Source of the DNA: a virus
Taxonomy: Duplodnaviria > Heunggongvirae > Uroviricota > Caudoviricetes
Length of the DNA stretch: 26,029 nt
IMG/VR virus record: IMGVR_UViG_2671180637_000024
Coordinates: 1 to 26,029 of that record
Direction: 5' to 3' (one strand)
Position 1 is the first letter of the stretch; every line of letters begins with the position of its first letter. Of this stretch, positions 15,162 through 23,073 are shown in pieces. Below the pieces are notes generated by a model. It saw nothing but the letters and a program-made list of their open reading frames with translations. It was not told where the DNA came from and made no database searches. The position numbers were made by a program, and so were the translations under genes.

Positions 15162-16223
15162 ATGTCACAGAACTGGATGAGACATTTCGAGCTGCAGCTT
15201 GTGGACGGGAACGGTCAGGGAATTGAGCTAAGTGATTTCAAAGTCACCTTTACGATCGACTGGTTCAACATCAGCAGCGCGTCCCGGGTAGGGACTATCA
15301 AAATTTATAACCTCTCGGCAGATACTGTGAACCGAATTACCGGGCAGGAGTTTTCGAAAGTGCGTCTGATTGCGGGTTACGACGGTATCGCGCCGGAGGG
15401 GTCGGCAAGCGACGTCGGGACAGTGCGGGAAGTTGACGCGGCGGACGTGGGCCAGAGTGATGGTCGCAACTACGGACTGATTTTCAGCGGTGAAATTCGC
15501 TACTCGGTCACAGGAAAAGACAGTCCGGTTGATTCCTACGTCCTGATTCAGGCAGCAGATACTGATCTGGCTTTTGCCACCAGTATAACCTCACAGACGC
15601 TGGCTGCCGGTTACACGGTCGCTGATGTGAACCGTGCGCTGATGAAAGACTTCGAAGCCAAAGGTGTGACCGAAGGCCTGACGCCTGAAATGCCTGCTAC
15701 TGTATTCCCCCGGGGGCGGGTACTCTTTGGCATGACGCGGCATCTAATGGATAACGTAGCCGGGCAATGTGGCGCAACATGGCAATTCGTGGACGGTCAG
15801 CGCCAGATGGTGGCGAATAACGAATATGTTCATGAAGCGATTGTGCTCAACAGCGCTACCGGGCTTATTGGCATGCCGCAGCAGACTATCGGTAACGGCG
15901 TAAACGTCCGCGCGCTTATTAATCCGAACATCCGGGTTAACGGACTTATTCTGCTGGATCAGGCTTCCGTGTATCGTACTGCCTTGTCGAACAACGATAT
16001 TGCGATGGCTGGTGGTCAGATCACCGACCAGAACACGGATGGAAATATCACGCTAAGCGGCACCACATCGCAGCCTGCCAGCATCGCAACGGATGGCGTT
16101 TATATTGTGCGCGGGATTATGTACACTGGCGACACAAGGGGCCAGGCGTGGTACATGGATATGATGTGCGAAGCGCGTGGCGCGGCGGATCTGTATACGC
16201 GATCGGCTTTGCAAAGGGGATGA
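15162..16223 (+). CDS. putative baseplate hub protein (P2 gpD / Mu gpP-like)
   Basis: 353-aa product between tape-measure-proximal genes and baseplate spike; size and position match hub proteins of P2/Mu-type tails. Confidence 0.55.
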   Translation: MSQNWMRHFELQLVDGNGQGIELSDFKVTFTIDWFNISSASRVGTIKIYNLSADTVNRITGQEFSKVRLIAGYDGIAPEGSASDVGTVREVDAADVGQSDGRNYGLIFSGEIRYSVTGKDSPVDSYVLIQAADTDLAFATSITSQTLAAGYTVADVNRALMKDFEAKGVTEGLTPEMPATVFPRGRVLFGMTRHLMDNVAGQCGATWQFVDGQRQMVANNEYVHEAIVLNSATGLIGMPQQTIGNGVNVRALINPNIRVNGLILLDQASVYRTALSNNDIAMAGGQITDQNTDGNITLSGTTSQPASIATDGVYIVRGIMYTGDTRGQAWYMDMMCEARGAADLYTRSALQRG

Positions 16224-16226
16224 GCA

Positions 16227-16568
16227 ATGAGGGGTATTATTTTTCTGTTAGCTGTCTTTTCTGCGTGCAGCGCGTGGGCGGATGGCTTCACGGTTAAATG
16301 CGGTGGCTACACTATGGTTGCAAACCAGGGCGAGTTATCGACTATCAACGGTGAAAGAGTTACCTCTCAAAAAATCACCGAACTGGGTACCAATGGTTTG
16401 AAAGTAGACATGGGGCTTATGCCTGCCAAAGACGGTAACAACTACGGCTTTGAATACATTCGTCGCCCTGGTACCGAAACGCGATTCCTGAATGTCCAGC
16501 TTCTGCAGAACAGCATGGATGCGCCGAAAATCATCGGATCTTTCCCTTGTAAAAAAGTGGCTGGGTGA
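16227..16568 (+). CDS. small exported protein (signal peptide; possible lipoprotein)
   Basis: N-terminus MRGIIFLLAVFSACSAWADG: hydrophobic core then either an AXA signal peptidase I site (AWA|D) or a lipobox-like FSAC; 113 aa; no structural-protein character. Confidence 0.55.
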   Translation: MRGIIFLLAVFSACSAWADGFTVKCGGYTMVANQGELSTINGERVTSQKITELGTNGLKVDMGLMPAKDGNNYGFEYIRRPGTETRFLNVQLLQNSMDAPKIIGSFPCKKVAG

Positions 16569-16661
16569 AGGTAACCTGAAATTCGTAACGCCTGAAAAAC
16601 AACAAAATGTGCTCTAAAAACTGTTGTTTTTTGAGACGAGCGATTACACTGCACTGACTTT

Positions 16662-16688
16662 TTGATGGTGGATTGCCATCGATATGCT
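16662..16688 (+). promoter_or_regulatory. candidate sigma70-like promoter for the accessory cassette
   Basis: TTGATG (16662-16667), 15-nt spacer, TATGCT (16683-16688), about 30 nt upstream of the cassette start codon; weak match, spacing suboptimal. Confidence 0.3.
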
Positions 16689-16717
16689 ACTTCATTAAAG
16701 CCAGGAATAACTAAAAC

Positions 16718-17449
16718 ATGAGTTTAGCGCAGCCAAAATCAGGAGAACTGTTAGATCTTCTGACTCCTTCATTAACTAAGGGTGAAAACCTTCTGAGTGA
16801 GTTTGAAATCCATCGAATCATTCGTGAAGCGAAGAAACTACCTGAACGTTATCAGGGGCTATCAATTGAAGGCTTAGCTAAGCTTGTTCTTGGTGAAATA
16901 GATGAAGGATGTTCACTCTGTGAGCGGGGGTTGAGAATAGCGCCTAACGATCCAGTTTCTTTTTGTAACTATACGATTGCGCTGCGTAACTTAGGTTTGC
17001 ATGCTCGCCAGTATGTGATGATTCAGAAAGCATCTGATTCACTTAATCCAACGATATTGGCTGAGGTTGCTACAATTTCTGCATACTGGGTTGATATCGA
17101 TTTGCTTGAAAAGGTGATGCCGATGCTAACTGCAATGGAAGTACCGCGCCCTGAAGATATGGGCAAATGGTATGACACGCTCAATTATCTGCATACCCAA
17201 AAAGATCATGCTCAGGAGCTAAAAACTATTGGGCGGCTCATGATGAACGTTGCAGAAAAGTACCGCGCTCGTCTTGCTGGCGCTCATGCTTTTTATGTAA
17301 TGTCAGAACTTGATACGCTGTTCGTTGAAGTCAAAACAGACGATCCAGTGCTTCTTTCGCAGATGAATAATGCCTTGGCTGATGAGATTATTATTGCGGG
17401 GCTTGCGGATTCAGAATGCGTCGGATGCTTTGAAGCCGGGGAACTCTAA
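16718..17449 (+). CDS. accessory cassette gene A: hypothetical helical protein (243 aa), candidate partner of the HEPN-like protein
   Basis: Clean ORF with AGGA upstream; lower GC than flanking tail genes; predicted mostly helical with a TPR-like stretch (GLRIAPNDPVSFCNYTIALRNLGLHARQ); no nucleotidyltransferase GS…DxD motif seen. Stop overlaps gene B start (TAATG). Confidence 0.6.
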   Translation: MSLAQPKSGELLDLLTPSLTKGENLLSEFEIHRIIREAKKLPERYQGLSIEGLAKLVLGEIDEGCSLCERGLRIAPNDPVSFCNYTIALRNLGLHARQYVMIQKASDSLNPTILAEVATISAYWVDIDLLEKVMPMLTAMEVPRPEDMGKWYDTLNYLHTQKDHAQELKTIGRLMMNVAEKYRARLAGAHAFYVMSELDTLFVEVKTDDPVLLSQMNNALADEIIIAGLADSECVGCFEAGEL

Positions 17450-17877
17450 TGTCGGTTGAGCATACCTGTTTTCTTGAATTGGCTAAGCATTCCCTGGCTC
17501 TAAACGGTGAGATGTGGACGAGAAATGCTATTAGCCGAGCATACTATGGTATGTACCATTCCGCCTTACGGATCACCAACAATCTGGTACCGACCGCTAC
17601 ACAAGATGGTGAAAAACTAAAAGGTGGAGTTCACATGCGAGTCTATACGGCCTTTTGTAGTGGTGAGGCAGCTGCACTTAACGATGTTGATGTTAACGCA
17701 GTAAAGAAAATCGGCGTTAAACTGAAAATGACGCATGCCCAACGTGTTAATTCTGATTACAAGCTTGAGCGGAAAATCAACCGGATTACCGCGAGAAGTG
17801 TAATTCTGGATGCGGAAGAGGTCGATGCAATCGTTAATCAATTACTGAAGATTGGTGATGACTCGTTAACTGCATAA
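17449..17877 (+). CDS. accessory cassette gene B: HEPN-like domain protein (142 aa)
   Basis: Contains SRAYYGMYHSALR (aa 29-41), GGVHMRVYTAF (aa 59-69) and RVNSDY (aa 99-104) followed by an acidic C-terminal helix; this matches my recollection of the classical HEPN consensus (SRAYYAMFHAAKALL … H … R..ADY). Assignment is from memory, not an HMM hit. Confidence 0.6.
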   Translation: MSVEHTCFLELAKHSLALNGEMWTRNAISRAYYGMYHSALRITNNLVPTATQDGEKLKGGVHMRVYTAFCSGEAAALNDVDVNAVKKIGVKLKMTHAQRVNSDYKLERKINRITARSVILDAEEVDAIVNQLLKIGDDSLTA

Positions 17878-17900
17878 GCTGAAATTTCTCAAAATTCAAA

Positions 17901-17923
17901 CCCGCCACTTGGCGGGTTTTTTG
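17901..17923 (+). terminator. rho-independent terminator downstream of the accessory cassette
   Basis: cccgcc-actt-ggcggg perfect 6-bp GC stem (17901-17916) followed by TTTTTT (17917-17922). Confidence 0.7.
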
Positions 17924-17941
17924 CTTTCTGGAGCCTACTAA

Positions 17942-18694
17942 ATGGCAGTATCTGACCAGACCCGCAGCGGCGACCTTGCCGAAACATTTAAATCCGAACA
18001 GGAAACAACAAAGAACCAGATCCGTGTCGCCTTGCCTGGCATTGTTCAGTCATTCGCTCCTGATGCGGTGACGGCGGTTGTACAGCCTGCTATCCGTTAC
18101 GTTGAAATTGATAACGACGGCAACCGCATTACCAAAAATTACCCATTGCTGGTGGATGTGCCAGTGGTATTCCCGCGTGGCGGAAGCTGTACGCTAACGT
18201 TTCCAGTTAAAGCCGGTGATGAATGTTTGGTGATTTTTGCCGATCGTTGTATTGATTTCTGGTGGCAGAGTGGCGGGATACAGGAGCCGGTCGATGACAG
18301 AATGCATGATTTATCGGATGCGTTTTGTATTGTCGGTCCCCAGTCGCAGGCAAGGAAGATTAGCGGTATTAATACCAGTGCCACACAGTTGCGTAGTGAT
18401 GACGGCAGCACCTATTTTGAGCTTAATCCTGATACCAGGAAAATTAAAATTGTCGCTCCGGGGGGCCTTGATGTGGTTGCCCCTCTGGCTGATTTTTCTG
18501 AGAAAGTAACCATTCATGGCCTGTTAACCTGGATGGGAGGCATGGTGGGGTCTGTTGTTTCTGGTGTGGCTTCAAAAATCACTGGTGCTGTTGAGTTTTT
18601 GGGTAGCGTGAAGGCTAACGGCAAGCCAATCGATGATACGCACACTCATGGTGGTGTTCAGCGCGGTGGAAGCAATACCGACGGAGTAAACTGA
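17942..18694 (+). CDS. baseplate spike / assembly protein V-like
   Basis: 250-aa product with glycine-rich C-terminus, directly upstream of W- and J-like baseplate genes (V-W-J-I order of P2/Mu-type baseplates); GGAG Shine-Dalgarno. Confidence 0.65.
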   Translation: MAVSDQTRSGDLAETFKSEQETTKNQIRVALPGIVQSFAPDAVTAVVQPAIRYVEIDNDGNRITKNYPLLVDVPVVFPRGGSCTLTFPVKAGDECLVIFADRCIDFWWQSGGIQEPVDDRMHDLSDAFCIVGPQSQARKISGINTSATQLRSDDGSTYFELNPDTRKIKIVAPGGLDVVAPLADFSEKVTIHGLLTWMGGMVGSVVSGVASKITGAVEFLGSVKANGKPIDDTHTHGGVQRGGSNTDGVN

Positions 18695-20923: not shown

Positions 20924-21717
20924 TGGCGAAAAATGACTTTAAAGCGTTTGCAACTGATCGAAATGCCAATGTTATGTCGCAGGAGGAATGGGAAGCGTTG
21001 CCTGCGCTTTTATCCGGATTTACAGCAGGGAAAGCATCCAGTGCGCAGGTGAACAAAGCCATTCGACAGGCCAGCTTTATTGCTGCAGCTTTGGCCCAGT
21101 TTGTAAGTGACAAAACGCAACGGGATGTGCTTGATAATGGTGATCTGCCCGGTTTTGTTGAATTGCTTGGATCGGGGTTTGCTGTTGAATACCTGAGCCG
21201 CAAAAATCCGTTTGGCGATATCAAATCGGACGGCACAGTGAAAACGGCTCTCGAAAACCTTGGTTTGGGAGAAGGTGCCCCAGCTATTGGCGTTCCGTTC
21301 TTCTGGCCCTCCGCGGCAATGCCAAATACTGTAATCGACAGCTGGTCCGGTATGGTGTTTTTGAAGTTCAACGGGGCGAAATTTTCTGCCTCTGATTACC
21401 CTGTGCTGGCGAAAGTGTTTCCTTCGCTGGTATTACCTGAAGCCCGCGGTGATTTCATTCGTATCTGGGATGACGGGCGAGGTGCAGATGGTGGTCGCGA
21501 ATTATTAAGCTGGCAGGAAGCTACAAACTTTTCTCAGTTTGCCGGGAATATAGGCGGAGGTGCGGGACACGCAATTAACTTTCATGATGGCATTGCCGGA
21601 AATCAGCCAGGATTTTCACGATTTAATTTCACCAGTAACTCTGTGGGTGATGGTGTGAATTTTGTTGCTGTCAGACCGCGAAATATTGCATTTAACTTTC
21701 TGGTGAGGGCTAAATAA
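20923..21717 (+). CDS. tail fibre protein (constant N-terminal part plus currently expressed variable C-terminal part)
   Basis: Precedes a tail fibre assembly gene; contains the left hix/gix-like crossover site in-frame at 21248-21273. ATG 20923 (ATGA overlap, GGGGAG upstream) preferred over ATG 20905. Confidence 0.7.
21248..21273 (+). repeat. left recombination (crossover) site of the invertible tail-fibre segment
   Basis: CTCTCGAAAACC-TT-GGTTTGGGAGAA resembles the hixL site as I recall it (TTCTTGAAAACC-AA-GGTTTTTGATAA); present in inverted orientation at 22994-23019. Confidence 0.6.
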
Positions 21718-22310
21718 TGAAACCTGTTTTTGATAAAAATGGGCTGGCTACAGTGCCGGGCGATATGCGTTGTTTTTATTATGATGCTGAAACATCTGAG
21801 TATACGGGCTGGTCTGATGAATATATTAATACTGGCGTAAGTATGCCCGCCTGTTCCACTGGTATTGACCCGGGCGAAAACATTCCGGGGAAAGTGGCAG
21901 TATTTACGGGTAAGGGATGGAGCCATGAAGAAGACCATCGCAATGAGACTGTTTACTCAACAGAAAATGGCGCAGCTGTTACAGTGGATTATATCGGTGC
22001 CATCAAAAACGGTTATGTCACGCTTTCACCGTTAACGACATATGATAAATGGGATGGTGAGAAATGGGTGACAGATACTGAGGCACAGCATAACGCCGCA
22101 GTAGAAGCAGCAGAAGCACAGCGCCAGTCACTGATTGATGCAGCAATGGCTTCCATTAGTCTGATTCAGCTGAAATTACAGGCCGGACGGAAACTGACTC
22201 AGGCAGAAACAACCCGACTTAACGCCGTGCTGGATTACATTGACGCGGTGACGGCAACAGATACCAGCACCGCGCCGGATGTCATCTGGCCTGAACTGCC
22301 GGAGGCGTAG
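21717..22310 (+). CDS. tail fibre assembly protein (expressed orientation)
   Basis: 197-aa product following the tail fibre gene with TAATG coupling; C-terminal TSTAPDVIWP motif shared with the oppositely oriented copy. Confidence 0.75.
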   Translation: MKPVFDKNGLATVPGDMRCFYYDAETSEYTGWSDEYINTGVSMPACSTGIDPGENIPGKVAVFTGKGWSHEEDHRNETVYSTENGAAVTVDYIGAIKNGYVTLSPLTTYDKWDGEKWVTDTEAQHNAAVEAAEAQRQSLIDAAMASISLIQLKLQAGRKLTQAETTRLNAVLDYIDAVTATDTSTAPDVIWPELPEA

Positions 22311-22710
22311 GCCATTCAATATCGGGTGCTGTTGACGTATCAACACGCATCAGCAGCACACGGTATTTCTTCCATTGGGTGAGAGCTGTAGCTTCTTCAT
22401 CAGTTGCGATATCAGCATCAACAGCATCCTGATGCCAGGATATTTCACTGTCAGCTTTTTCCCGTAATTGGGATTTTTTAACTTCAGCAATAGCTATTAA
22501 TTCCTTTTTGGTCGGCTGAGGAATATCTATCAGTGCTGGTTTTCCATTCAGTGTTCCAATCTGTTTTCCTGGTGGAATATCCATAAATAACTTTTTATGT
22601 TCTTCCTCACTGACTATTAAACCATCATCAGGCCACAGACCTGATGCCTCAAATTTTTCTTTCTCCGATATGGGGAAAAAGCCATTTGCTTTAGCGCTCC
22701 ATACGTACAT
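22282..22710 (-). CDS. alternative tail fibre assembly protein (silent orientation)
   Basis: 142-aa minus-strand ORF converging on and overlapping the + strand tail-fibre assembly gene by 29 nt; C-terminal TSTAPDIEWP motif; directly follows the alternative fibre segment. Confidence 0.7.
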   Translation of the reverse strand: MYVWSAKANGFFPISEKEKFEASGLWPDDGLIVSEEEHKKLFMDIPPGKQIGTLNGKPALIDIPQPTKKELIAIAEVKKSQLREKADSEISWHQDAVDADIATDEEATALTQWKKYRVLLMRVDTSTAPDIEWPTPPAVQAR

Positions 22711-22711
22711 A

Positions 22712-23005
22712 TCAATACCCCACCGCTATAATGTCCACATTAAATCCCCCGGGACCTGCCTGCCAGATGCTGGCCCCTGTTAATGATTTTGTTTGATGAA
22801 CAACCGCCACATTTGCTGGCGATAGTGTTTCAGTTGTTACAGTACCGATATCATTCCAGTTAATTGAGATGGAATAGTTCGTTGTTGTAAACGACCGGGG
22901 GAAAGTTATGTGTCTTGCATTGGTGCCAACAGGAAATCCAAGATAAACACGCTGAATTATCATTCCTCCAGGTAACATAACCCAGTTAGCACCTTCTCCA
23001 AAACC
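22712..23005 (-). CDS. alternative tail fibre variable C-terminal segment (promoterless; expressed only after inversion)
   Basis: Minus-strand frame …GFGEGANWVML… aligns with the + strand fibre at …GLGEGAPAI… exactly at the crossover site; inversion at the 2-bp core would give an in-frame fusion to the constant N-terminal 113 codons. Confidence 0.6.
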   Translation of the reverse strand, partial: GFGEGANWVMLPGGMIIQRVYLGFPVGTNARHITFPRSFTTTNYSISINWNDIGTVTTETLSPANVAVVHQTKSLTGASIWQAGPGGFNVDIIAVGY

Positions 23006-23019
23006 AACGTTTATGAAAA
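22994..23019 (+). repeat. right recombination (crossover) site of the invertible segment
   Basis: TTCTCCAAAACC-AA-CGTTTATGAAAA; its reverse complement matches the left site over TTGGTTTnGGAGAAGGTGC (19 of 20). Confidence 0.6.
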
Positions 23020-23073
23020 TGCAGAAATAACGAGCAAATGGCATCATTCCTGCTTTTGTCAGGGAGATCTACC

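What the first reader, a model, noticed from the sequence alone, without database searches (positions are those of the whole stretch)
16718..17449. Gene A is not a minimal nucleotidyltransferase: non-canonical partner for a small HEPN protein
Small classical HEPN proteins are usually paired with an upstream, overlapping MNT-type nucleotidyltransferase antitoxin. Gene A is upstream and overlapping but is a 243-aa, apparently all-helical protein with a TPR-like segment and no GS-x(9-13)-DxD/E motif that I can find. That suggests a different regulatory or sensing partner, which is what would make the pair novel rather than a standard HEPN-MNT module.
Basis: inference. Interest (0 to 1): 0.65.

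Follow-up and report, generated by a model that had tools for sequence, protein, structure and literature searches.

The report
TPR-type partner of prophage HEPN toxin
A small two-gene cassette carried by an E. coli prophage pairs a likely RNA-cutting HEPN toxin with a helical-repeat (TPR) protein instead of the usual nucleotidyltransferase antidote. This looks like an undescribed variant of a common toxin-antitoxin or phage-defence module.

Summary
Gene A (16718-17449, 243 aa) and gene B (17449-17877, 142 aa) are real genes under purifying selection. They overlap by 1 nt and form a low-GC insert with its own terminator, between the baseplate hub and spike genes of an E. coli prophage.

The A-B pairing held in all twelve distinct loci examined, down to about 23% identity. 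These include tail regions of different prophages, integrase islets next to Fic or hok/gef genes, and a Methylocaldum contig. No locus had an MNT partner. A diverges faster than B.

My best reading is a toxin-antitoxin or abortive-infection-type module in which a TPR protein replaces MntA as regulator of the HEPN RNase. Whether A inhibits, senses or activates is inferred, not shown. I class it as a new variant of a known kind, of moderate interest.

The parts
16569..16717 (+). Intergenic leader of the cassette. It contains an AT-rich hairpin just after the upstream 113-aa gene (arms 16595-16604 and 16622-16631) and an AGGA ribosome-binding site (16703-16706) 11 nt before the start of A. No consensus sigma-70 promoter was found.
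   Evidence: Sequence. Inverted repeat I2, 10 nt and 100% complementary. The promoter scan found no + strand site. GC drops to 0.39-0.43 here.
16718..17449 (+). Gene A: 243-aa cytoplasmic protein (WP_000050470.1, phrog_22649). It is the non-MNT partner of the HEPN protein.
   Evidence: ORF. Family of 26 clusters, all 243-260 aa (24 of them 243-247 aa), plus about 50 full-length 50%-identity representatives. dN/dS 0.08-0.14. Annotated as 'hypothetical'.
16736..17197 (+). N-terminal TPR-like alpha-superhelix of A (aa 7-160, about ten helices). The clearest TPR-like helix pairs are aa 44-74, 79-104 and 111-139.
17201..17437 (+). C-terminal alpha-beta-beta-alpha-beta module of A (aa 162-240). It carries the family's most conserved C-terminal residues (D209, N217, L220, C234, G236, F238). 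No known family matches it.
   Evidence: Model. Alignment A1. No significant PDB or Pfam match with the C-terminal profile A5. It occurs once as a stand-alone 103-aa protein, P0129.
17438..17451 (+). Translational-coupling junction: GGGGA Shine-Dalgarno (17438-17442) inside the end of A, then TAATG, where the TAA stop of A (17447-17449) and the ATG of B (17449-17451) share one base.
   Evidence: Sequence. Stop/start overlap of 1, 4, 11 or 14 nt in 11 of the 12 loci (the window plus 10 of the 11 other loci measured).
17449..17877 (+). Gene B: 142-aa HEPN-fold protein of the AF0298/UPF0332-like HEPN-T type (WP_000110002.1, phrog_5176). Candidate active-site residues are E21, R25, H37, H62 (codon 17632-17634), R99 (17743-17745), D103 and Y104 (17758-17760).
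17898..17929 (+). Rho-independent terminator closing the cassette: a 9-bp GC-rich stem (AAACCCGCC...GGCGGGTTT) followed by a T run, 20 nt after the stop of B and just before the spike gene.
   Evidence: Terminator scan. Sub-threshold Rfam leader and sRNA hits all centre on this hairpin.

Best explanation
A and B form a mobile, co-inherited two-gene module of the toxin-antitoxin or abortive-infection kind, carried as a moron in a variable slot of a prophage tail operon.

B is the effector. It is a small dimer-type HEPN RNase of the AF0298-like HEPN-T lineage. This lineage lacks the canonical His of Rx4-6H (here R99-x3-D103-Y104) and uses a compensating invariant His (H62, in the G-G-x-H-x-R insert between helices 2 and 3).

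A is its cognate protein partner, made first and translationally coupled to B. In this lineage A has replaced the MntA nucleotidyltransferase. Because it has no nucleotidyltransferase site, it cannot neutralise B by AMPylation. It most likely controls B by direct binding, using the TPR groove and/or the conserved C-terminal alpha/beta module. B would then be released or activated when A is lost or is engaged by a trigger such as a protein of an infecting phage.

Shown: gene structure, folds, absence of MNT features, strict linkage and co-divergence, mobile and defence-like contexts.
Inferred: RNase activity and toxicity of B, physical A-B binding, the direction of regulation, and the biological role (phage exclusion or element stabilisation).

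The confidence of 0.55 applies to the full statement, with A as the inhibitory partner of a toxic RNase. The narrower claim, that A and B are a functionally linked module and that A is not an MNT, I hold at about 0.9.
For: Cassette anatomy:
- 1-nt stop/start overlap with an internal Shine-Dalgarno.
- Own terminator.
- Low-GC island of 0.39-0.46 against 0.52-0.55 in the flanks.

B is HEPN:
- Invariant E21, R25, Y32, Y33, H37, G60, H62 and R99 across the broad family.
- These fit the published description of AF0298-like HEPN-T, with D in place of H and an alternative His from the helix 2-3 insert (PMC3710099).

B descends from MNT-paired HEPNs:
- Relatives carry PF05168.
- Relatives hit PADLOC PDC-M05B, best E 5.9e-6. 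PDC-M05 is a nucleotidyltransferase+HEPN pair (PMC12988326).

A is not MNT:
-.

Obligate linkage:
- Every A-family gene examined is followed by a B-family gene. B-profile E values run from 8e-71 to 3e-20 for full-length partners.
- Every distant B homolog examined is preceded by an A-family gene. The independent A1 profile gives E 6e-9 to 2e-15.
- This holds at 12 distinct loci, with no MNT seen at any of them.

Co-divergence:
- The pairwise identity matrices of A and B correlate at r = 0.955, with 0 of 2000 permutations reaching that value. B is more conserved than A in 89% of comparisons.
- The upstream partner evolving faster is the pattern I would expect for an antitoxin (my own knowledge).

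Context:
- The same hub-spike slot holds a YafO-toxin pair, DUF4282 or DUF2335 in sibling prophages.
- Elsewhere the pair sits beside YafO, Fic, Bro-N and KilA-N genes, or in integrase islets beside hok/gef and Fic.
- No nucleotidyltransferase gene is annotated anywhere in the prophage.
Against: - There is no experimental evidence that B is toxic or catalytic. AF0298-like HEPNs lack the canonical His, and their activity is only predicted (PMC3710099).
- A has no recognisable DNA-binding domain of the kind usual in type II antitoxins. No convincing own promoter or operator was found upstream, so expression in the lysogen is unproven.
- No A-B complex model could be computed.
- B keeps an invariant Tyr104 next to the motif. 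This resembles the AMPylated Tyr of HepT (PMC7641770), so control by a nucleotidyltransferase acting in trans is not formally excluded.
- Neither protein reaches a significant score against a validated defence-system model in PADLOC.
Confidence: 0.55

Rival explanations
1. Sensor-effector reading. B is held inactive on its own (or is harmless), and A is a positive regulator. Its TPR superhelix recognises a phage protein, and A then activates, scaffolds or targets the HEPN RNase. This would be a minimal abortive-infection pair and not an antidote/poison pair.
For: - TPR arrays serve as phage-protein sensors in STAND/Avs-type defence proteins (discussed in PMC9122126).
- A diverges faster than B, which fits a sensor in an arms race.
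- A lacks the DNA-binding domain typical of type II antitoxins.
- The pair sits in prophage cargo slots and defence-like neighbourhoods.
Against: - The arrangement of upstream gene, overlapping stop/start and 1:1 coupling is the classical antitoxin-first layout.
- A has no NTPase or other signalling domain.
- Faster divergence is equally expected of antitoxins.
- Nothing here distinguishes activation from inhibition.
Confidence: 0.25
2. Non-toxic reading. B is a catalytically inactive HEPN (RNA- or nucleotide-binding adaptor), and the A-B complex serves the prophage in some other way, such as regulation of lysogeny or late gene expression, or counter-defence. It would not be a toxin module.
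For: - B lacks the canonical His of Rx4-6H.
- B itself gets no Pfam HEPN hit, and only weak ones appear among close relatives, best E 0.11.
- No hit to validated defence models.
- The pair is embedded in a late structural operon without a clear promoter of its own.
Against: - A full set of invariant polar residues (E21, R25, H37, H62, R99, D103, Y104) is maintained over deep divergence. This matches the alternative active site proposed for AF0298-like HEPNs (PMC3710099).
- The pair is equally conserved outside phages, in integrase islets next to hok/gef and Fic and next to ribosomal protein genes in Methylocaldum. That argues against a phage-specific housekeeping role.
Confidence: 0.12
3. A is a highly divergent minimal nucleotidyltransferase after all, so the pair is an ordinary type VII HepT/MntA system.
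For: - A is upstream of and overlapping a classical-type HEPN gene.
- B keeps a Tyr next to its motif.
- A has a small alpha/beta module at its C-terminus.
Against: - No GS-x(9-13)-DxD/E in 0 of 24 members.
- No nucleotidyltransferase Pfam family is among those listed for the 53 full-length or 35 C-terminal sequences at E <= 1.
- The PDB profile search with the C-terminal module finds nothing relevant.
- The module has only three strands, with a direct beta-hairpin. It lacks the beta-alpha-beta arrangement that carries the GS loop and the carboxylate strand.
- No conserved acidic pair lies on a strand.
Confidence: 0.02
4. A and B are phage morphogenesis accessory proteins (for example baseplate or tail assembly chaperones), which would explain their place between the hub and spike genes.
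For: Their position inside the baseplate gene block, on the same strand.
Against: - Sibling prophages with the same hub and spike genes lack the pair and carry unrelated cargo instead.
- Relatives sit at different places in unrelated phage types and in non-phage islets.
- The region has foreign GC content and its own terminator.
- No structural-protein match was found in BFVD or PHROGs.
Confidence: 0.01

Closest known systems
Type VII HepT/MntA (HEPN-MNT) toxin-antitoxin systems (e.g. Shewanella SO_3166/SO_3165; PMC7641770)
   Same: - The partner gene lies upstream and overlaps.
- The module is a mobile two-gene unit.
- B's wider family still matches the HEPN half of a nucleotidyltransferase+HEPN candidate system (PDC-M05B).
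- A Tyr lies adjacent to the Arg motif.
   Different: - The partner is a 243-aa TPR + alpha/beta protein without the MNT fold or the GSX10DXD motif, so AMPylation by the partner is not possible.
- B has R-x3-D-Y instead of RX4HXY, with a substitute His62.
AF0298/UPF0332-like HEPN-T proteins (PF05168 clade; PDB 2hsb, 1ufb; Anantharaman et al. 2013, PMC3710099)
   Same: - They share the same two sequence signatures (SRAYYxMYH and R-x-x-S/A-D-Y).
- They share the same variant active-site logic: D in place of H, with an alternative His from the helix 2-3 insert.
   Different: - According to that survey, these proteins are stand-alone, fused to MNT, or clustered with R-M operons.
- B's family is enterobacterial and prophage-borne, and in every locus examined it is paired with the A family.
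- B itself is too diverged to hit PF05168.
[quoted passage not shown]
   Same: They provide a precedent for a HEPN effector encoded together with a TPR/Sel1-type helical-repeat protein in conflict systems.
   Different: - Those HEPN families keep the canonical Rx4-6H motif and are separate clades from HEPN-T.
- No relationship of their repeat proteins to A was tested, because the sequences were not in hand.
- A's C-terminal alpha/beta module is not mentioned for them.
- None has been characterised mechanistically.
HEPN toxins with non-MNT protein antitoxins: RnlA/RnlB and LsoA/LsoB (and the phage T4 antitoxin Dmd)
   Different: - The toxins are large multi-domain proteins.
- The antitoxin is downstream, small and unrelated to TPR proteins.
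- There is no sequence relationship to A or B.
DefensePredictor DS-28 (E. coli two-gene system: HEPN family nuclease + 252-aa hypothetical protein; PMC13092281)
   Same: It is an experimentally validated E. coli anti-phage pair made of a small HEPN nuclease and an uncharacterised protein of about 250 aa.
   Different: - It is unrelated in sequence: A against the DS-28 partner gives BLASTP E 0.75, and the B profile against the DS-28 HEPN gives hhalign probability 0.3%.
- The gene order is reversed.
- Its HEPN has the canonical RNxxxH motif.

Membership tests
Type VII HepT/MntA (HEPN-MNT) TA system | The toxin has the HEPN fold | tested here: met
   [not shown]
Type VII HepT/MntA (HEPN-MNT) TA system | The toxin carries the RX4HXY motif (catalytic His and AMPylated Tyr) | tested here: not met
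   B has R99-V-N-S-D103-Y104. There is no His at R+5 to R+7, and the Tyr is at R+5 and not at R+7. Motif definition from PMC7641770.
Type VII HepT/MntA (HEPN-MNT) TA system | The antitoxin is a minimal nucleotidyltransferase with the GSX10DXD motif | tested here: not met
   [not shown]
Type VII HepT/MntA (HEPN-MNT) TA system | The antitoxin gene lies upstream, co-directional and overlapping | tested here: met
   TAATG junction with a 1-nt overlap. Overlap is kept in 11 of 12 loci.
Type VII HepT/MntA (HEPN-MNT) TA system | The toxin is neutralised by (oligo)AMPylation | not testable with these tools
   This needs mass spectrometry of B co-expressed with A. It is not expected, because A lacks a nucleotidyltransferase site.
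HEPN-T clade, AF0298/UPF0332-like subgroup (for gene B) | Four-helix up-down HEPN core closest to AF0298 and TT1696 | tested here: met
   [not shown]
HEPN-T clade, AF0298/UPF0332-like subgroup (for gene B) | The motif His is replaced (by D), with a compensating conserved His from the insert between helices 2 and 3 | tested here: met
   D103 is invariant among 27 close relatives. H62, in G59-G60-x-H62-x-R64, lies in the region between helix 21-43 and helix 61-71 and is invariant across the broad family. Criterion from PMC3710099. That the residues lie close together in space could not be checked, because no coordinates were available.
HEPN-T clade, AF0298/UPF0332-like subgroup (for gene B) | Match to Pfam PF05168 (HEPN) above the curated cut-off | tested here: inconclusive
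   B itself has no hit at E <= 1. 6 of 27 close relatives hit only weakly, best E 0.11. More distant relatives reached with profile A6 carry precomputed PF05168 hits. The B profile against 2hsb gives E 0.15, aligned at both signature motifs.
TPR-repeat proteins (for gene A, N-terminal part) | Tandem helix-turn-helix repeats forming a right-handed superhelix, recognised by TPR models | tested here: met
   [not shown]
Type II toxin-antitoxin systems (generic) | Two small adjacent co-transcribed genes that are inherited together | tested here: met
   12 of 12 loci keep the pair. Mantel-type r = 0.955.
Type II toxin-antitoxin systems (generic) | The antitoxin has a DNA-binding domain (HTH, RHH, AbrB or Phd) for autoregulation | tested here: not met
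   No such Pfam or NCBIfam domain is found in A or among the families listed for its relatives. Only AT-rich hairpins lie upstream, with no clear operator.
Type II toxin-antitoxin systems (generic) | The toxin arrests growth and the antitoxin neutralises it by binding | not testable with these tools
   This requires expression and interaction experiments.
PADLOC candidate system PDC-M05 (nucleotidyltransferase + HEPN) | An M05B-type HEPN together with an M05A nucleotidyltransferase | tested here: not met
   Distant B relatives hit PDC-M05B (E 5.9e-6, 0.0022, 0.0025). B itself does not. No A-family member hits any M05A model.
LA2681-type HEPN + TPR operons (PMC3710099) | A HEPN of the LA2681 family with the canonical Rx4-6H motif, fused to or next to a TPR protein | not tested
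B lacks the canonical His, whereas Table 1 of the paper lists the motif as conserved in LA2681, so membership is unlikely.

The most novel reading that the evidence does not exclude
The A-B pair is a minimal, NTPase-free 'TPR sensor + HEPN effector' abortive-infection system. A's fast-evolving TPR groove would bind a specific protein of an incoming phage. That event would release or switch on the HEPN RNase, which is held through A's orphan C-terminal alpha/beta module. The module would be a previously undescribed HEPN-neutralising domain that has displaced the MntA AMPylation mechanism in a whole lineage of classical HEPN toxins.
Probability: 0.2. Interest if true: 0.7.

Novelty: new variant of a known kind. 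Interest (0 to 1): 0.52.

Why it matters
[quoted passage not shown] This lineage has a classical-type HEPN that has lost the nucleotidyltransferase partner and is instead locked to a TPR protein with an orphan C-terminal module. If that holds up, there is a second, binding-based way to control these RNases.

The finding also gives a function to three PHROG families and one enterobacterial protein family that are currently annotated as hypothetical. It adds a candidate anti-phage or addiction cassette to prophages of E. coli, Salmonella, Klebsiella, Citrobacter, Enterobacter, Yersinia and Serratia. Finally, it points to a cargo hotspot between the baseplate hub and spike genes that could be mined for further systems.

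The system is small (1.2 kb) and present in E. coli, so it can be tested directly.

Tried and rejected
Approaches that gave nothing:
- Pfam, NCBIfam and PADLOC scans of A and B gave no significant family. PHROGs gave only families of unknown function.
- Megablast against phage genomes matched only 40 bp of the spike-gene flank in Salmonella phage SEN34.
- I tried to identify A's C-terminal module by sequence. A profile of 35 C-terminal segments against PDB and Pfam gave only noise: designed repeats, an MCP coiled coil and RsfS at E >= 0.1.
- The AFDB50 Foldseek library was unavailable. BFVD was used instead and gave two uncharacterised look-alikes.
- The search for related loci with the broad alignments A3 and A4 failed because they have no conserved 7-10-mer. 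With A1 it returned only three genomes.
- The Rfam and repeat scans, run to look for an RNA antitoxin of the type III kind, found only the terminator hairpin.
- No consensus sigma-70 promoter was found on the + strand upstream of A.

Identities considered and rejected:
- DefensePredictor DS-28 is unrelated.
- PDC-M71A/B: the weak reciprocal hits (E 0.012 and 0.037) were not reproduced in other members, so I treat them as TPR/HEPN background.
- P0129 as a frameshifted A is rejected. Its upstream ORF is an unrelated membrane-like peptide, and its downstream gene is not a B homolog.
- NetFlax does not cover HEPN systems.

Full report
WHAT IS THERE

The window is part of a lambdoid E. coli prophage with a contractile-tail module. 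In strain WAT an identical copy lies next to torT.

- Gene A is the ATG-initiated ORF at 16718-17449 (243 aa).
- Gene B is the ORF at 17449-17877 (142 aa).
- The TAA stop of A and the ATG of B share one base (TAATG). A GGGGA Shine-Dalgarno lies 6 nt upstream of B's start, inside A.
- A strong intrinsic terminator follows B at 17898-17929.
- The pair forms a low-GC island of 0.39-0.46 against 0.52-0.55 in the flanks. It sits between a baseplate-hub-like gene (15162-16223) plus a conserved 113-aa ORF on one side, and the tail-spike gene (17942-18694) on the other.
- Both ORFs are under purifying selection. dN/dS is 0.08-0.14 for A and 0.06-0.07 for B.
- RefSeq annotates both as 'hypothetical protein'.

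THE SLOT IS A CARGO HOTSPOT

About 350 complete E. coli genomes carry related hub and spike genes, but only 32-33 carry the A-B pair. Sibling prophages keep the 113-aa ORF and the spike gene. Between them they hold a 190-aa gene plus a YafO-family toxin, a DUF4282 gene, a DUF2335 gene, or a thioredoxin-domain gene. A-B is therefore a discrete moron and not part of the tail machinery.

GENE B

- The AlphaFold2 model built on 27 homologs is confident (pLDDT 91.7).
- By sequence B is too diverged for Pfam. Its profile nevertheless aligns to 2hsb at the two signature segments, SRAYYxMYH and R-x-x-S-D-Y.
- A broadened profile reaches relatives that carry PF05168.
- Distant relatives also hit PADLOC PDC-M05B, best E 5.9e-6. 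PDC-M05 is a nucleotidyltransferase + HEPN pair (PMC12988326).
- B lacks the canonical His of Rx4-6H. It has R99-V-N-S-D103-Y104. H62, in a G-G-x-H-x-R segment between helices 2 and 3, is invariant over the whole family, together with E21, R25, Y32, Y33, H37, G60 and R99.
- This matches the variant described for AF0298-like HEPN-T proteins: D replaces H, and an alternative conserved His comes from the helix 2-3 insert and could form an alternative active site (PMC3710099).
- B is therefore a classical-type small HEPN. It is plausibly, but not demonstrably, a nuclease.

GENE A

- The word-indexed search found 26 clusters at 38-100% identity, all 243-260 aa (24 of them 243-247 aa), and the named ones are from Enterobacterales.
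- The exhaustive profile search added about 50 full-length representatives of 236-276 aa. The rest of its hits are generic multi-TPR proteins that match only aa 52-108.
- The AlphaFold2 model is confident (pLDDT 90.4, pTM 0.87). It has two parts:
  - about ten helices (aa 7-160) forming a TPR-like superhelix;
  - a C-terminal helix (162-181), beta-hairpin (186-194, 198-205), helix (210-226) and strand (234-240).

The nucleotidyltransferase hypothesis fails every test I could run:
- No G[SG]-x(9-13)-D-x-[DE] in any of 24 members.
- No nucleotidyltransferase Pfam family is among those listed for 53 full-length or 35 C-terminal sequences at E <= 1.
- Nothing relevant in a PDB profile search with the C-terminal module.
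- The topology, three strands with a direct hairpin, does not match the alpha-beta-alpha-beta core that carries the GS loop.

The C-terminal module is an orphan. It holds the most conserved C-terminal residues (D209, N217, L220, C234, G236, F238). It appears once as a stand-alone 103-aa protein. BFVD contains only two full-length look-alikes from uncultured siphoviruses (TM 0.60-0.68) and no structural or assembly protein.

THE PAIRING IS OBLIGATE AND OLD

Starting from A relatives at 40, 37, 28 and about 23% identity, and from two still more distant ones, the next gene downstream is always a B-family HEPN. B-profile E values run from 8e-71 to 3e-20 for full-length partners, and are 4e-15 and 3e-9 for two short ones.

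Starting independently from distant B relatives (23-33% identity) in Yersinia pekkanenii, Serratia fonticola, Y. kristensenii and a Methylocaldum contig, the upstream gene is always a 253-259-aa A-family protein. The A1 profile, which contains none of them, gives E 6e-9 to 2e-15.

Including the window and three genome hits (Citrobacter, Pseudocitrobacter, Yokenella), this makes twelve distinct loci. None has an MNT partner, and eleven have stop/start overlap of 1, 4, 11 or 14 nt.

The pairwise identity matrices of A and B correlate at r = 0.955, with 0 of 2000 label permutations reaching that value. B is more conserved than A in 89% of comparisons.

Contexts differ widely:
- the same hub-spike slot in another myovirus-type prophage;
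- between the tail chaperone and the tape-measure gene of Klebsiella siphovirus-type prophages;
- beside YafO, Fic, Bro-N and KilA-N genes;
- integrase islets beside hok/gef or Fic;
- next to rplM-rpsI in Methylocaldum.

This is how a self-contained mobile two-gene module behaves.

MECHANISM

The best-supported reading is a toxin-antitoxin or abortive-infection-type module.
- B would be the RNase effector, using the H62/R99 variant site.
- A would be its cognate regulator, translated first and coupled to B. It would act by protein-protein binding, since it has no catalytic nucleotidyltransferase site.
- The layout (partner first, overlapping) and A's faster divergence favour an inhibitor role (antitoxin).
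- The TPR architecture, the missing DNA-binding domain and the defence-like neighbourhoods leave room for a sensor role.

These steps are inferred. Nothing here shows toxicity, binding or anti-phage activity. An open detail is that B retains an invariant Tyr104 right after the Arg motif. This recalls the AMPylated Tyr of HepT's RX4HXY (PMC7641770), yet no nucleotidyltransferase gene is annotated in the prophage.

COMPARISON WITH KNOWN SYSTEMS

- The pair works like, and probably descends from, HEPN-MNT modules. It fails two defining features of that family: the MNT antitoxin and the RX4HXY motif.
- Precedents exist for HEPN effectors next to helical-repeat proteins (LA2681 with TPR, AbiU2 with Sel1; PMC3710099) and for HEPN toxins with binding-type antitoxins (RnlAB, LsoAB). 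These involve other HEPN clades and unrelated partners.
- The validated E. coli HEPN pair DS-28 is unrelated.
- Neither accession appears in the DefensePredictor tables that could be read.
- NetFlax does not cover HEPN systems.
- No paper in the searchable library describes this pairing.

VERDICT

The one error is that A is not all-helical. The interpretation, a non-canonical, non-MNT partner for a small classical-type HEPN, is supported and can be generalised to a conserved family. It is a new variant of a known kind and not a new kind of system. It is of moderate interest and easy to test.

Noticed in passing
window 16227-16568 (+): A 113-aa ORF with a signal-peptide and lipobox-like N-terminus (MRGIIFLLAVFSAC...), in phrog_3443 of unknown function. 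It is retained in sibling prophages whatever cargo follows, so it belongs to the backbone and not to the cassette. It may be a prophage-encoded envelope lipoprotein.
   Followed up: partly
window ~16569-17941, compared with L027, L028 and L029: The gap between the 113-aa ORF and the spike gene is a cargo hotspot in about 350 E. coli prophages. Alternatives include a 190-aa gene + YafO-family toxin, DUF4282, DUF2335 and a thioredoxin-domain gene. It could be mined for further defence or TA cargo.
   Followed up: partly
window 17743-17760 (B residues R99-Y104): B keeps an invariant Tyr (Y104) immediately after R99-x3-D103, although its lineage has no MNT partner. In HepT, the Tyr of RX4HXY is the AMPylation site (PMC7641770). 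Whether this Tyr is catalytic, structural or modified in trans is unknown.
   Followed up: no
L013:295-606 (protein P0129): A 103-aa stand-alone copy of A's C-terminal alpha/beta module on a 1.6-kb metagenomic contig. It is preceded by an unrelated membrane-like 88-aa ORF and is not followed by a B homolog. It could be a free-standing version of the module or a decayed remnant.
   Followed up: partly
window ~21717-23047, both strands: Downstream of the + strand tail-fibre and tail-fibre-assembly genes lie a second tail-fibre-assembly gene and a gp53-like gene on the - strand (22282-22710 and 22712-23047; annotation). The arrangement resembles an alternative or invertible tail-fibre segment. 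No invertase or crossover sites were looked for.
   Followed up: no
protein P0048: A 243-aa ENA protein that is 89% identical to B over 65% of B but also carries FAD/NAD-oxidoreductase Pfam hits, on a 2.1-kb contig. It is probably a chimeric assembly or gene call and not a real fusion.
   Followed up: no
L018:2384-2689: In one very distant pair, the B-like gene is only 101 aa and ends right after the Arg motif (…SERHTVEFVL*). It lacks the last HEPN helix and has E-F in place of D-Y. It may be a truncated or decaying copy.
   Followed up: no
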